A DNA stretch of 35,734 nucleotides from a virus (Duplodnaviria; Caudoviricetes), in the IMG/VR virus record IMGVR_UViG_3300002092_000108, positions 1 through 35,734 of that record. One strand, 5' to 3'. How positions within the stretch are numbered: position 1 is the first letter of the stretch; every line of letters begins with the position of its first letter. Under the pieces are notes generated by a model, which saw nothing but the letters and a program-made list of their open reading frames with translations, had not been told where the DNA came from and made no database searches. Positions 2,756 through 11,011 of the stretch are shown piece after piece. The translations under genes were made by a program, and so were the position numbers.

Positions 2756-2784
2756 TTGACATTATTAAATGCTTATGGTAAAAT
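2756..2784 (+). promoter_or_regulatory. Sigma70-type promoter P1a
   Basis: TTGACA-17 nt-TAAAAT with extended -10 TG. Confidence 0.65.
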
Positions 2785-2831: not shown

Positions 2832-2859
2832 TTGCATTTATCCACAGTTTTGCTATAAT
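2832..2859 (+). promoter_or_regulatory. Sigma70-type promoter P1b with a consensus DnaA box in the spacer
   Basis: TTGCAT-16 nt-TATAAT, TG extended -10; TTATCCACA at 2838-2846; predicted +1 about 2866. Confidence 0.75.
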
Positions 2860-2865
2860 GAGAGT

Positions 2866-2940
2866 ACTATTTGGATGGCCACGACTCAACAGAGTTGTGG
2901 ATTGTCACGCAATTACAACTCTCAGCAATGAGAGTTTTTT
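2866..2940 (+). promoter_or_regulatory. Transcription attenuator (leader 1)
   Basis: Hairpin 2879-2887/2892-2900, competing antiterminator 2891-2905/2909-2922, terminator 2917-2940. Confidence 0.7.
2917..2940 (+). terminator. Intrinsic terminator
   Basis: AACTCTCA-GCAA-TGAGAGTT-TTTT. Confidence 0.8.
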
Positions 2941-3026
2941 GCTTCAAGACAATAAAACGTAACACTTTAAAGTTCTGGATGCGTTAATGCCAGAACGCCA
3001 AAACTCAAACTCATGTGATGAGGGAA

Positions 3027-3200
3027 GAGCATAGGGTAGGTAAACACAAAAACAGCAGAGGGTATCACCTGTTGTCGGAACTTAGTGACTGATCTCAATA
3101 AGTATCGGTGTGTTTACTATTGCCTTCGTACCTTTATATTTTTTGTTGGTTCTTTAACACACTACCAGCCTAAATCTATGCTCCAAGAAAAAAGCATAGA
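3027..3200 (+). ncRNA. Putative multi-branched structured RNA upstream of the recombinase
   Basis: Nested helices 3027-3034/3176-3183, 3040-3048/3109-3117, 3052-3058/3069-3075 and 3145-3150/3164-3169, some with G-U pairs. Confidence 0.5.
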
Positions 3201-3249
3201 AACTACAAAATTACATAGTATTAAATACTTAATCTAAGGGAGGTATATT

Positions 3250-4119
3250 ATGTCTAACAACACAGATAACCAAAAGAACATAGAAACTATACTTTTAAGA
3301 TTCAACAAAGAATATATATGGCCACACGCATATTCTCAATATACATACGATAACTATAAATGGGCAGTCCATTCATTTGTTAAAGCAGTTGGGAATAAAG
3401 ATATAGATAAGATAACAATGGAAGATATCTATACATGGAGAAGATTCATGGAAGCCCACGAATATACTATTGGAGCAACTAATAGTTTCTTATATAGGAT
3501 AAGACTTTTACTAACCTGGAGTGCTAGAGAGTTTGAACTATCTATTGCCCCAAGAGATATAATCATACCTAAGAAAGAAAGTAGATTGCCTAAGACATTA
3601 AACAAAGAACAAATTATCAAATTACTTAAGTACGCTACACCAAGAGAGAAAGTTATTATAATGGTCCTATTCTCTTCTGGTATAAGACGTGCAGAGCTAT
3701 CTAGTTTGAGAGTTTCTGATATAAATGGACAGGTAATCAAAGTTAGAGGAAAAGGCAATAAGGAACGCTTAGGATTCATTGATCGTGAAACAAGAGAAAT
3801 TATTGACGAATATCTTGATACTAGAGAAAACAATAGTCGCTTCTTAATAGACTCGGAAAAAGGTGAAAGTTTACAACCCGGAACTATTGGCCATATTCTA
3901 TCTGATCTATCAGCTAAGAGTGGGGTGCATATTACACCTCATATGTTAAGACATACATTTGCAACAGAGATGATAAGGGAAGGCTGTGGAGCATTTCAAT
4001 TACAAAAGATACTAGGCCATGAGCATATATCGACTACTCAGATATATGTACACTTAAATGCGCAGGATGTTACACAAGCTTATGACAATTACCATAAGCC
4101 CCTATTGACATTAGCTTAG
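3250..4119 (+). CDS. XerC/D-like tyrosine recombinase/integrase
   Basis: SGIRRAEL (R), GKGNKER (K), HMLRH, LGH and TTQIY; N-terminal SAM-like core-binding region; no arm-binding domain; SD GGAGG. Confidence 0.95.
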   Translation: MSNNTDNQKNIETILLRFNKEYIWPHAYSQYTYDNYKWAVHSFVKAVGNKDIDKITMEDIYTWRRFMEAHEYTIGATNSFLYRIRLLLTWSAREFELSIAPRDIIIPKKESRLPKTLNKEQIIKLLKYATPREKVIIMVLFSSGIRRAELSSLRVSDINGQVIKVRGKGNKERLGFIDRETREIIDEYLDTRENNSRFLIDSEKGESLQPGTIGHILSDLSAKSGVHITPHMLRHTFATEMIREGCGAFQLQKILGHEHISTTQIYVHLNAQDVTQAYDNYHKPLLTLA

Positions 4120-4133
4120 TTATTTGCTATTAT
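4105..4133 (+). promoter_or_regulatory. Sigma70-type promoter P2 (early operon)
   Basis: TTGACA-17 nt-TATTAT with TG extension, overlapping the recombinase stop; +1 about 4140. Confidence 0.75.
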
Positions 4134-4139
4134 GGTTAT

Positions 4140-4281
4140 AGCTCTTTTACAGAACGAAAAGAAAAAGGATACGGGTTATCCAAGTTCTGTAATACTCCCT
4201 TTCATATAGAAAGAGTTATTACAGAGAGAATTAATCATAAATCGATTATAACAGATACCCGTCTCCACCGGGTATTTTTTT
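4140..4281 (+). promoter_or_regulatory. Attenuator/riboswitch-like leader 2
   Basis: Alternative helices 4147-4155/4184-4192 versus 4186-4194/4217-4225; 4171-4180 is complementary to the terminator 5' arm 4254-4262. Confidence 0.6.
4255..4281 (+). terminator. Intrinsic terminator
   Basis: ATACCCG-7 nt loop-CGGGTAT-TTTTTT. Confidence 0.82.
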
Positions 4282-4288
4282 ATCTAAA

Positions 4289-4320
4289 TGAGTTGTGACC
4301 ATCCAAATAGTCACAATTCA
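4289..4320 (+). ncRNA. Hairpin antisense to the 5' end of leader 1
   Basis: 11-bp stem with loop CATCCAAATA; 4289-4311 is complementary to 2866-2888 at 21 WC positions, 1 G-U and 1 mismatch. Confidence 0.6.
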
Positions 4321-4451
4321 ACAGGATAAATAAACCTGAGTTCGGTTGGGAAACTTATCGAGCGGTGGAATAAGGTATGGACCGCCAAAGCTAGAGTGCC
4401 AAAGTAATACAAATCACTCATTAGCAAGTAGCAAACCATCGAGGGAGGAAC

Positions 4452-4919
4452 ATTAGACGTTTTGTAACGGTATTGGTTCTAGTTGCCTTTTGGACACTAA
4501 AACCACCATACCCAACAGCAAGTGCGGCTATCAAGCCAACCAAAAGTAATAGTGTGAATACTTCAACTTCACAAGCACATTCCAAAGTTAAGGCTAAACC
4601 CTTACAAACAATCAACAAACAAATTGTCGCTAGCAATAGCACAGTGAGTTTGCCAGCTATCAAACAGCCAGTAGTTGATTCATCCGATACATATATGCAG
4701 TACATATTTGATCATGAATCTAGCAACAACCCATACGCAGTAAATAGCATTGGATGCATTGGTCTAGGACAAGCCTGTCCTGGCGAGAAGCTTTTATCAC
4801 ATTGCCCAGATTTAGGGGATAGAGCTTGCCAAGTTCAATTCTTTACTAACTATGCAGTTGCAAGATACGGATCATGGTATCAAGCATACATATTTTGGAT
4901 AAACAACCATTGGTGGTAA
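4452..4919 (+). CDS. Secreted/membrane-anchored lytic-transglycosylase-like protein (aggregation-promoting-factor C-terminal type)
   Basis: N-terminal signal, S/T/K linker, C-terminal HESS..AVN..GLGQ..YAVARYGSW..W motif; start ATT 4452 or TTG 4473. Confidence 0.78.
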   Translation: MRRFVTVLVLVAFWTLKPPYPTASAAIKPTKSNSVNTSTSQAHSKVKAKPLQTINKQIVASNSTVSLPAIKQPVVDSSDTYMQYIFDHESSNNPYAVNSIGCIGLGQACPGEKLLSHCPDLGDRACQVQFFTNYAVARYGSWYQAYIFWINNHWW

Positions 4920-4922
4920 AAA

Positions 4923-4997
4923 CGCCAGTCGTAATGACTGGCTTGGTGGGTGTAACTAAACCCGTGTTATATCCACCTAATTAGTCATTACGGGGCG
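4923..4997 (+). other. Long intergenic hairpin (possible RNase III site or sRNA)
   Basis: 4930-4941/4981-4992 12-bp helix, extended by further helices and closed by CGCC/GGCG. Confidence 0.6.
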
Positions 4998-6566: not shown

Positions 6567-6803
6567 GTGGATACTCTAACTCAATATCAAAAAATACTAA
6601 GAAGCTTTAAAAAGAACACGAGACAAGGACTAACAACCTACGAGTTAATAACAATTTGCCCGGCTGAGTACCGAGCAAGAATCTCAGAACTAAGGCGTGA
6701 TGGCTATAACATTGTAGCTGAACGAGTTTACTCAAATAACAAGTATATGGGTTACTTCAGATACTTTCTTATCGAAGAAAACGAAATGGCTGACGTAGCA
6801 TGA
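6567..6803 (+). CDS. Phage winged helix-turn-helix protein
   Basis: LTTYEL...RARISELRRDGYNI pattern; GGAGG SD. Confidence 0.75.
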   Translation: MDTLTQYQKILRSFKKNTRQGLTTYELITICPAEYRARISELRRDGYNIVAERVYSNNKYMGYFRYFLIEENEMADVA

Positions 6804-9112: not shown

Positions 9113-9574
9113 ATGGCTACTACCAAACCTAAGACAACCAAACCTAAGACTAAAAGACTAACAGTCAAGCAAACAAAGTTTCTGAATGCTAAAGTACAGG
9201 GTAAATCAGGTACAAGAGCATACATGGAGGCCTATAACACTAAGAACGTTAATGTCGCAAAGGTAGAAGCTAGCCGCACCCTATCAAAACCTAACGTACA
9301 AGAAGCGTATCAGGTAGCGTTAGAAAAGAACGGCATAACACTAGATAGGGCTATTGCTCCTATTGGCAAAGCACTTGTTGCTACTAAGGTTCTTATAACC
9401 GGAAAAGATGAAGATGCATTTGCTGAAGTAGTAGACGATATAGATGTACAACTCAAAGGATCAGACAGAGCATTGAAGCTCATGGGTATAAGCCAAGGTG
9501 ACACTAATAACCAAACTGTAAACATCAACTTTAATCAGGTGGCTGAAGATGTCCGAAAATCAATCGGTATATAA
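9113..9574 (+). CDS. terS: Terminase small subunit
   Basis: LTVKQTKF...AYMEAY...ASRTLSKPNV HTH pattern; directly precedes TerL. Confidence 0.85.
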   Translation: MATTKPKTTKPKTKRLTVKQTKFLNAKVQGKSGTRAYMEAYNTKNVNVAKVEASRTLSKPNVQEAYQVALEKNGITLDRAIAPIGKALVATKVLITGKDEDAFAEVVDDIDVQLKGSDRALKLMGISQGDTNNQTVNINFNQVAEDVRKSIGI

Positions 9575-10355
9575 CAACTATGCCATTGGTATAGAGAAGT
9601 ATCTAACGATAGTTAATAAAGACAATACAGAAGTACCATTCATTCTAAACGATATACAACGCTCCTATGTGAATCAATCATCTAATAGAGACATCATACT
9701 CAAAGCTAGACAACAGGGATTCTCAAGTCTTATCTTAGCTGCATTCACTCTGGATTTTATCCTTAAAGAGAACACTAACTCGGTAGTTGTAGCTGACAAA
9801 GCAGACAATGCTCAATCATTACTTGCAAGAGTTAAGTGGTACATCAAAGCTTTTGAGCAATCAACTGGATCTCAAGTACCTCTCAAGTACAACTCTAAGT
9901 ATCAATTAGTAAATGGAGCAAACAATGCAACATACACCATCGGAACAGCACAAGAACAAGACTTCGGAAGGTCAAGAACAATTACTAACTTGCATTTGTC
10001 TGAAGCAGCATTCTATCCTAACTTGCCTAACTTACTTGCTGGAGCAGCACAAGCAGTCGTGCCAACAGGTAAACTCGTTATTGAAACAACAGCCAATGGT
10101 TTTAATTCATTTAAAACGCTATGGGATGACTCAGTCTTGGGTAATACGGCCTACCAACCATTATTCTTCGAAGCATCAAAGTTCTATGATAAACCAACCC
10201 TTGAACTAAAACGTAAAGAACTTGGTGACAGGCTATACAACCAAGAGTATCCAAGTACACCTGAACTAGCATTCATTACATCTGGACAACCATTCTTTGA
10301 CTCTGATTCTATGCAATGGTATTTAAAGCAAGCTAAGGATCCAATGACTGTATGA
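9549..10355 (+). CDS. terL: Terminase large subunit, ATPase half
   Basis: LN.IQ adenine motif, Walker A LKARQQGFS, Walker B LHLSEAAF, motif III ETTANG. Confidence 0.9.
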   Translation: MSENQSVYNNYAIGIEKYLTIVNKDNTEVPFILNDIQRSYVNQSSNRDIILKARQQGFSSLILAAFTLDFILKENTNSVVVADKADNAQSLLARVKWYIKAFEQSTGSQVPLKYNSKYQLVNGANNATYTIGTAQEQDFGRSRTITNLHLSEAAFYPNLPNLLAGAAQAVVPTGKLVIETTANGFNSFKTLWDDSVLGNTAYQPLFFEASKFYDKPTLELKRKELGDRLYNQEYPSTPELAFITSGQPFFDSDSMQWYLKQAKDPMTV

Positions 10356-11011
10356 AATACTTTAGACGTTACAGAGAATTAGATAGAGGTGAGTTTATAG
10401 TATGCTTCGCTGATACAGCAGCAGGTGGAATAGATTATTGTGCAGCACAGTTTCTTAGTAAAGATAAAGTTGATGTACCTATTATCTATCATGCTCAAAC
10501 AATAGCTACTGAGATGACCCCGGCATTACATCATGAACTAGAACGAATCTATGAAGCAACAGGTGTACAACCAGTTGTATGTTTCGAACGTAACAATGGT
10601 GGAGTATATGAATTAGAACGACTAGCAGGACTCAATCGCAATGGTAAGTACTTAATCTATCAAGAGAAGAAGAACGTAGGTTCAACTGATTCAACAGTAA
10701 GTACACCTAAACTAGGATGGACTACTAACTCAGCTACTAGACCTGTAATGCTATCAATGCTTAAAGATGCAATAGATACTAGATTACTTACAATCTATGA
10801 TCGACCAACTATCAATGAAATGTTTGCTTTCGTAGTAGTTCAGACCAGCAGTAGTTGGAAAGCTCAAGCCGAGAGTGGAGCGCATGATGATTTAATTATG
10901 AGTCTAGCCGGAGCATGGCAGATGTATCAAACAGAGGAACGACCAATCGATTACTCTAGAGTTACTATGCCAAGTGAAAAGCTCTTTGATTCAGATGGGT
11001 TTTATATATGA
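10352..11011 (+). CDS. terL: Terminase large subunit, RNase H-like nuclease half
   Basis: FADTA, FERN, GWTT and HDDLIMSLA motifs. Confidence 0.88.
   Translation: MKYFRRYRELDRGEFIVCFADTAAGGIDYCAAQFLSKDKVDVPIIYHAQTIATEMTPALHHELERIYEATGVQPVVCFERNNGGVYELERLAGLNRNGKYLIYQEKKNVGSTDSTVSTPKLGWTTNSATRPVMLSMLKDAIDTRLLTIYDRPTINEMFAFVVVQTSSSWKAQAESGAHDDLIMSLAGAWQMYQTEERPIDYSRVTMPSEKLFDSDGFYI

What the first reader, a model, noticed from the sequence alone, without database searches (positions are those of the whole stretch)
2866..4320. Trans-acting antisense hairpin wired to the recombinase attenuator: candidate RNA-only genetic switch
Seen: 2866-2888 (ACTATTTGGATGGCCACGACTCA) is complementary to 4289-4311 (TGAGTTGTGACCATCCAAATAGT) with 21 WC pairs, 1 G-U and 1 mismatch. 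The match begins at the predicted +1 of promoter P1b. The antisense copy exposes CATCCAAATA in a hairpin loop, matching the unpaired 5' tail of leader 1. It lies 7 nt after the terminator of leader 2, so it would be made only on read-through. Inference: pairing opens hairpin 2879-2900 and frees the antiterminator, allowing transcription into the structured RNA and recombinase, which would couple early-gene activation to recombination. Known analogues are P4 CI RNA, P1 C4 RNA and pT181/pIP501 attenuation, but those repress, whereas this geometry predicts activation. Alternative: DNA inverted repeats for recombinase-mediated inversion.
Basis: partly seen in the sequence, partly recalled or inferred. 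Interest (0 to 1): 0.9.

Follow-up and report, generated by a model that had tools for sequence, protein, structure and literature searches.

The report
Paired RNA switch flanking phage integrase
A freshwater phage and over 20 related phage contigs carry two short segments, nearly always on either side of the integrase gene, whose sequences differ from phage to phage yet match each other; the downstream one is predicted to pair as RNA with the upstream one and block a transcription stop signal, which would switch the integrase on and make this a likely natural counterpart of engineered RNA activators.

Summary
Observation confirmed. The 23-nt match is near chance genome-wide (14 of 60 shuffles) but not within the two intergenic regions (0 of 400). 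It is a family-wide design. All 20 integrase loci with full flanks from one family scan carry a 22-31-nt complementary pair. In a 20-system set, arm A starts 5-11 nt after a -10 box and arm B sits in a hairpin 8-20 nt after a terminator. The arms fall into 10 sequence clusters, and the cognate partner binds best in 19 of 20. In 17 of 20, arm B covers the 5' stem of the first terminator, as engineered STARs do; here it acts through a predicted antiterminator. tRNA pieces (likely attP) lie between integrase and arm B in most relatives, so integration would cut the circuit. DNA inversion is not supported (0 of 20 inverted). Direction is unproven: the short terminated leader also looks like an immunity RNA, arm B has its own covarying refold, and one relative lacks the integrase. 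No Rfam match, no RNA data, host unknown. The scan had not noted this on other DNA. Best model: activation plus decoy (0.55).

The parts
2756..2784 (+). Promoter-like site P1a; its transcript is predicted to bury the tail of arm A
   Evidence: 11 of 12; fold of 2790-2935; relatives diverge upstream of about 2829
2832..2859 (+). Promoter-like site P1b (weak -35, extended -10), with a DnaA-box-like 9-mer (name recalled) at 2838-2846 in the spacer
   Evidence: kept in three close relatives
2866..2888 (+). Arm A: 5' tail plus 5' strand of hairpin 1 of leader 1
2874..2906 (+). Hairpin 1 (predicted anti-antiterminator)
   Evidence: T2876C in three relatives turns a U-G pair into C-G
2891..2922 (+). 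Predicted antiterminator, 14 bp, -13.3 kcal/mol, forms when arm A is bound
   Evidence: p 0.03
2917..2940 (+). Intrinsic terminator T1; the terminated product is an RNA of about 77 nt
2946..3249 (+). Moderately structured non-coding stretch before the integrase; most relatives have a 96-175 aa ORF here
   Evidence: z -2.7; no remnant of that ORF
3250..4119 (+). Tyrosine recombinase/integrase, Xer-like, 289 aa
4105..4133 (+). Promoter-like site P2 overlapping the integrase stop
   Evidence: 11 of 12; a P2-like site in all 20 systems
4142..4151 (+). boxA-like motif near the start of the P2 transcript (name recalled, inferred)
4186..4225 (.). Imperfect palindrome with a core shared with relative L171; candidate attP (inferred from position)
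4253..4281 (+). Intrinsic terminator T2
4289..4320 (+). Hairpin B holding arm B (4289-4311), loop 4300-4309
4473..4919 (+). First early gene, transglycosylase / aggregation-promoting-factor-like; true start probably slightly upstream

Best explanation
Two complementary segments flank the integrase in this phage family, and the downstream hairpin RNA (B) likely acts in trans as an activator that pairs with the nascent upstream leader (A) and would stop terminator T1 from forming. Shown by sequence: the pair, its position and its conservation with changing sequence. Predicted by folding: B's loop meets A's free tail, the duplex extends to 22-31 bp and takes T1's 5' stem directly (17 of 20) or, as in this window, frees an antiterminator. 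Inferred: P1 is constitutive and mostly makes a short terminated RNA that soaks up B and sets a threshold (and could give superinfection immunity). When early transcription past T2 outruns this sink, B switches on the integrase (and, in most relatives, a ~100-aa gene), and P1 read-through feeds more transcription into T2 and B. Inferred: integration at an att site between P2 and T2 separates P1-integrase-P2 from T2-B-early genes and cuts the loop.
For: Pair in 20 of 20 full-flank integrase loci, score 20-27 against shuffle maxima of at most 17, plus 2 recovered across contig ends; 141 of 156 integrase-locus rows scored 15 or less and the other 15 were this family. Fixed geometry. 10 arm clusters at 70% identity; window arm at most 52% like any other; cognate best in 19 of 20. 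Arm covers at least 4 basal pairs of T1 in 17 of 20. Window: T1 5' strand captured before its 3' strand is made, 0.04 free against 0.98 bound; T1 pair probability about 1.0 alone, about 0.25 in the dimer; pairing gains 7-11 kcal/mol. Antiterminator better than shuffles in the window (p 0.03) and L206 (p 0.007). No promoter above 9 of 12 between T1 and the integrase in 20 of 20, and 17 of 20 have an ORF starting 85-139 nt after T1. tRNA pieces between P2 and T2 in 13 of 19 by pattern, 17 of 19 by eye (Rfam tRNA hits in 5 of 11 loci). No repressor family hit among the window ORFs scanned.
Against: A 41-63-nt RNA cannot hold a 25-nt complement without overlapping its own terminator, so the 17 of 20 overlap is partly forced. 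In the window T1 re-forms at equilibrium once its 3' strand exists (0.94 with arm A blocked), so the switch needs a kinetic trap. L019's cascade is not significant (p 0.25), and in L206 the antiterminator forms with or without binding (0.81 against 0.83). The helix between T1's 3' strand and sequence past the U-tract is significant over 20 systems (p 3e-5; p 0.017) but not after collapsing relatives (p 0.16), and is weak in the window (p 0.47). L206 keeps the pair with no integrase between the arms. Arm B's side has its own covarying refold. What lets polymerase pass T2 is unexplained. Sites of 9 of 12 are common by chance, so weak internal promoters are not excluded. The att site of the window is not mapped.
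Confidence: 0.55

Rival explanations
1. Opposite direction only: the terminated leader is a constitutive antisense RNA that binds hairpin B in the nascent early transcript, refolds it next to a boxA-like site and shuts the early operon (P4 CI-like immunity); T1 is just the end of the sRNA gene.
For: Compact promoter-to-terminator unit of 41-85 nt, with a free tail of 8 nt or more in 15 of 20. Helix formed by B's freed strand covaries: 95.5% of cells paired, 3 of 6 pairs compensatory, 0 of 500 shuffles as high on score, slid controls at most 45% (11 related sequences). boxA-like heptamer within 90 nt after B in 17 of 20 against 4.6% background. L206 has no integrase. Arms diverge like immunity determinants.
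Against: No U-tract terminator appears after the refolded helix, and boxA accessibility rises or stays level on binding in most systems. It does not explain the antiterminators of the window and L206 or how the integrase and upstream ORF are transcribed. The B-side helix is not significant after collapsing relatives (p 0.20), and the window lacks the heptamer after B.
Confidence: 0.27
2. Mutual activation: pairing both opens T1 and frees the boxA-like site behind B, so both operons need the duplex, a dose-sensing AND gate.
For: Both RNAs can refold once paired; boxA accessibility rises by 0.1 or more in 6 of 17 systems; a single A-C mismatch at duplex positions 12-15 in 12 of 20 systems could spare both transcripts from a double-strand nuclease (inference).
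Against: Accessibility falls in 3 of 17 and barely moves in the rest; blocking any strand tends to free its neighbours and I ran no control for that; a constitutive A would then favour lysis in a lysogen.
Confidence: 0.08
3. The arms are DNA inverted repeats that the recombinase uses to invert the segment between them.
For: They flank a tyrosine recombinase. Mismatch types do not pick a strand: 16 G-U on the plus strand against 14 A-C (G-U was scored as neutral in the search).
Against: 0 of 20 systems are in the inverted state: promoter, arm A, integrase and arm B share one orientation. Arms have no common sequence across clusters. The likely recombination site is the tRNA piece between P2 and T2. 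L206 has the pair without a recombinase between the arms.
Confidence: 0.03
4. Chance match or a relic of a local duplication with no function.
For: 14 of 60 genome-wide shuffles reach the same score.
Against: 0 of 400 in the restricted null; kept with changing sequence in over 20 contigs.
Confidence: 0.01

Closest known systems
STARs, small transcription activating RNAs (synthetic; bioRxiv 10.1101/022772, passages read)
   Same: A trans RNA pairs with the 5' stem of an intrinsic terminator in a nascent leader and is predicted to allow read-through.
   Different: Natural, phage-encoded, sits inside the early transcript behind a second terminator, has a hairpin-loop toehold, and its target's terminated product can bind it back. 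That 2015 paper says no natural example was known then.
Phage P4 CI RNA immunity (as described in PMC4825925, passage read); P1 C4 (recalled)
   Same: Small phage RNA pairing with a phage transcript to control elongation, tied to lysogeny.
   Different: CI is processed from the transcript it controls, pairs with two sites and causes termination. Here the RNAs come from separate promoters, form one near-perfect duplex, and the predicted effect on T1 is read-through. No Rfam match.
pT181/pIP501 antisense attenuators (recalled; pT181 named in 10.1101/022772)
   Same: Leader with competing terminator and antiterminator switched by an antisense RNA.
   Different: Those RNAs are encoded on the opposite strand of the target and induce termination; here the partner lies 0.8-2.2 kb away on the same strand and is predicted to prevent it.
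T-box riboswitch (PMC7430163, passages read) and sRNA antitermination at rpoS (PMC12360218, passages read)
   Same: Natural trans RNAs that cause antitermination.
   Different: T-boxes read uncharged tRNA through short contacts; DsrA, ArcZ and RprA block Rho. Neither is a dedicated long complement of an intrinsic terminator.
Integration-dependent immunity of mycobacteriophage BPs (PMC3694055, abstract and section 4 read)
   Same: attP inside a compact switch, so integration rewires it; Int level would set directionality.
   Different: BPs uses a protein repressor cut by attP; here attP would cut a transcription unit between two RNAs, and no repressor family was found.

Membership tests
STAR-type activator | Trans RNA complementary to the 5' stem of an intrinsic terminator, or to its anti-antiterminator | tested here: met
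   17 of 20 direct overlap; window through a cascade; by folding only
STAR-type activator | Adding the RNA raises read-through | not testable with these tools
   needs in vitro transcription or a reporter
P4 CI / P1 C4 RNAs | Match to the Rfam models | tested here: not met
   0 matches at E<=1 in the window; only tRNA in 11 related loci
P4 CI / P1 C4 RNAs | RNA processed from the transcript it controls, pairing at two flanking sites | tested here: not met
   single complement in the genome; separate promoter-like sites
P4 CI / P1 C4 RNAs | Binding causes premature termination of lytic transcription | tested here: inconclusive
   refold beside B covaries but no intrinsic terminator follows; Rho not testable
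pT181-type attenuator | Antisense RNA encoded on the opposite strand of its target | tested here: not met
   partner on the same strand, 1400 nt away
pT181-type attenuator | Leader with mutually exclusive terminator and antiterminator | tested here: met
   (predicted folds)
Integration-dependent switch | attP inside the switch unit | tested here: inconclusive
   tRNA pieces between P2 and T2 in 13-17 of 19; window has a palindrome instead; no prophage ends seen
Integration-dependent switch | attP within a repressor gene | tested here: not met
   region 4120-4440 is non-coding; no repressor family hit
Invertible DNA switch | Both orientations found; fixed recombinase-binding repeats | tested here: not met
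   0 of 20 inverted; 10 unrelated arm clusters

The most novel reading that the evidence does not exclude
A widespread family of temperate phages decides lysis against lysogeny with no protein repressor: a natural transcription-activating RNA and its own terminated target form a bistable positive-feedback loop that integration physically cuts, and the divergent arm pairs are a ready set of orthogonal immunity groups.
Probability: 0.3. Interest if true: 0.95.

Novelty: new variant of a known kind. Interest (0 to 1): 0.87.

Why it matters
If B activates, this is a natural small RNA that turns transcription on by blocking an intrinsic terminator, a mechanism I found in print only as an engineered device (searches; open-access library only). 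Either direction gives an uncatalogued RNA-based phage switch in over 20 contigs, a candidate for how repressor-less temperate phages keep lysogeny, and at least 10 naturally orthogonal RNA pairs short enough to test in E. coli at once.

Tried and rejected
Rfam: no hit. Close relatives by integrase: none in viral contigs; the metagenome scan gave 33 loci, of which only L182 (same phage) and L171 were relatives. The genome-contig scan returned only generic Xer genes, so no prophage or host was found; Atlas taxa say only 'Viruses'. A CPR/Saccharibacteria host is my recalled guess, not a result. L171 shows no partner in its 367 nt of upstream DNA (score 8); the contig may be too short. Leader 2 as a folding-controlled attenuator: rejected for the family (T2 at least 0.9 in 18 of 20; 0.75 in the window's full leader). 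The hairpin at 4186-4225 as a protein-binding RNA: set aside for a candidate att site. No RNA holder listed. No strand-switch joints in the contigs of 7 runs; contigs drop rare variants, so this is not evidence. Compensation in close relatives could not be read: T2876C is seen in 3 runs, but differences at arm B for those strains were cut from or not covered (160 rows not shown). One search had two loci on the wrong strand and was replaced; crashed. The representative search gave no context. Rows left out of the 20-system set: L298, L315, L306 (near-duplicates), L290, L301 (cut by contig start), L296, L313 (split across contig ends), L291, L312 (no integrase). Supplements were not consulted; RNA motif lists in supplements could hold this motif.

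Full report
Context. The window is a 35.7-kb phage record, 97% complete, with its recognisable genes on the plus strand: terminase, major head protein, endolysin and a Xer-like tyrosine integrase at 3250-4119. Runs that hold it well are labelled freshwater or lake water. The host is not established.

Observation. The match is as described: 21 WC pairs, one G-U, one C-A mismatch, a single copy in the genome. Arm B lies in a hairpin with a 10-nt loop, 7 nt after the U-tract of T2. Arm A begins 6 nt after an extended -10 and runs from an 8-nt free tail into hairpin 1, ahead of terminator T1. As a bare inverted repeat it is unremarkable: 14 of 60 genome shuffles match it. Within the two intergenic regions 0 of 400 do.

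Relatives. Integrase searches first gave only generic hits. A terminase alignment led to related phages, and one of them (L279, integrase 27.5% identical) had the same layout with a wholly different, perfect 23-nt pair. Of 156 integrase-locus rows with enough flank, 141 scored 15 or less and 15 scored 17-25; those 15 rows are the window, its copy L182 and six other records. A family-specific pattern then gave 26 loci, four or five of them records already seen: 2 had no integrase, 4 were cut by contig ends, and all 20 with full flanks had a pair scoring 20-27 against shuffle maxima of 17 or less. Two of the cut ones had the pair across the contig ends. L206, from the terminase set, has the pair with no integrase between the arms.

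Geometry in a 20-system set (window, L019, L206 and 17 loci). Arm A starts 5-11 nt after a -10 box, with a promoter score of 9 of 12 or more in 19 of 20. Arm B starts 8-20 nt after the T2 stem. A boxA-like heptamer (name recalled) follows B within 90 nt in 17 of 20, against 4.6% in random windows; the window is one of the three without it. The arms form 10 clusters at 70% identity, 11 systems in one cluster; cognate duplexes average -37 kcal/mol against -14 for non-cognate ones, and the cognate partner is best in 19 of 20. A single A-C mismatch sits at positions 12-15 in 12 of 20.

What pairing does to leader 1. In 17 of 20 the arm covers at least four basal pairs of T1, so binding excludes the terminator directly; this is partly forced by the small size of these RNAs, and L295's T1 has a poor U-tract. 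In the window the arm covers hairpin 1 instead. With arm A bound, a 14-bp antiterminator forms before T1's 3' strand is made (0.04 to 0.98). T1 re-forms at equilibrium on the RNA cut at the U-tract (0.94), so the effect must be kinetic; on the longer RNA the dimer keeps T1 at about 0.25. The antiterminator beats shuffles in the window (p 0.03) and L206 (p 0.007), not in L019 (p 0.25); in L206 it forms with or without binding. Many systems can also pair T1's 3' strand with sequence beyond the U-tract, which exists only after read-through: p 3e-5 or 0.017 over 20 systems by two definitions, controls p 0.6, but 0.16 after collapsing relatives. No promoter above 9 of 12 lies between T1 and the integrase, and 17 of 20 have a 96-175 aa ORF there, unmatched in Pfam and only faintly like DnaD/RepB proteins. 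Three close relatives differ at one site in 2866-2945, T2876C, which strengthens hairpin 1 but breaks a duplex pair unless 4301 changed too, which I could not read.

What pairing does to B. Hairpin B is conserved with compensatory changes (6 of 14 pairs). Its freed 3' strand can form a second helix that also covaries (3 of 6 pairs, 0 of 500 shuffles on score; 11 related sequences, and not significant after collapsing). No intrinsic terminator follows, and boxA accessibility changes little. So B is also built to be switched, and the sign of that switch is unknown.

The att site. Between P2 and T2 most relatives carry whole or half tRNA genes in either orientation (13 of 19 by pattern, 17 of 19 by eye), the usual mark of an attP (established knowledge). 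The window and L308 have palindromes there; the window's core is shared with L171 while its arms differ. Integration there would leave P1-integrase-P2 at one prophage end and T2-B-early genes at the other. T2 is a plain terminator by folding; how it is passed is open, and boxA-like motifs near the P2 start are only a lead.

Mechanism. Shown: the pair, its position, its conservation. Predicted: duplex formation and loss of T1. Inferred: B activates the integrase operon; the terminated A RNA titrates B; read-through from P1 feeds back into B; integration cuts the loop. I give this 0.55, repression by A alone 0.27, mutual activation 0.08, DNA inversion 0.03 (0 of 20 inverted). No repressor family was hit among the window ORFs scanned, though ORF 6567-6803 looks like a winged helix by eye.

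Comparison and novelty. It works like a STAR (10.1101/022772, passages) and, in the rival reading, like P4 CI (PMC4825925, passage), but fails the membership tests for CI/C4 and for cis-encoded attenuators. Natural RNA-driven antitermination is known for T-boxes and at Rho-dependent sites (PMC7430163, PMC12360218, passages); one review notes in general terms that antisense RNAs may induce antiterminators (PMC6524683, passage). BPs is the precedent for attP inside a switch (PMC3694055, abstract and section 4). PMC13059738 (passages) did not bear on it. Nine searches (listings only) showed no description of this system; the library is open-access only and I read no supplements. The scan's notes list no look-alike; two notes on integrase-linked sRNAs describe a one-to-many design aimed at start codons.

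Verdict. Real, conserved and uncatalogued; a new variant of antisense-controlled attenuation with a likely inverted sign. Interest 0.87.

Noticed in passing
L206 minus strand, last 1700 bases: Terminase-family phage with both arms, both promoters and terminators but no integrase; about 550 nt of apparently non-coding DNA lies between T1 and P2.
   Followed up: partly
L277:484-810, L011:4551-4850 and 15 other systems: A conserved ~100-aa ORF between T1 and the integrase, often with DnaA-box-like repeats; no Pfam family, faint DnaD/RepB-like Atlas neighbours. Candidate replication initiator with its origin.
   Followed up: partly
window 2838-2846: The genome's only exact DnaA-box-like 9-mer of this form lies in the spacer of P1b, so host DnaA might gate the leader (inference).
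   Followed up: no
L292-L314, between P2 and T2: Phages carry 5' halves, 3' halves or whole tRNA-Ala, -Thr or -Gly genes in both orientations; several with 5' halves have a promoter in front that could rebuild the host gene.
   Followed up: partly
window 9549-10355 and 10352-11011: The large terminase is split into two adjacent ORFs; over 1100 homologs of the N-terminal piece have a similar length (search limited to near lengths).
   Followed up: no
window 4930-4992: 27-bp imperfect hairpin right after the first early gene, with no U-tract.
   Followed up: no
window 4441-4460: The first early gene has a strong ribosome-binding site followed by ATT in frame; possible non-standard start.
   Followed up: no
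window 22619, 29516, 32378: Only three further terminator-like sites in the genome, all on the plus strand in the late region.
   Followed up: no
window 6567-6803: Small early ORF that looks like a winged-helix protein by eye; only unknown-function PHROG hits.
   Followed up: no
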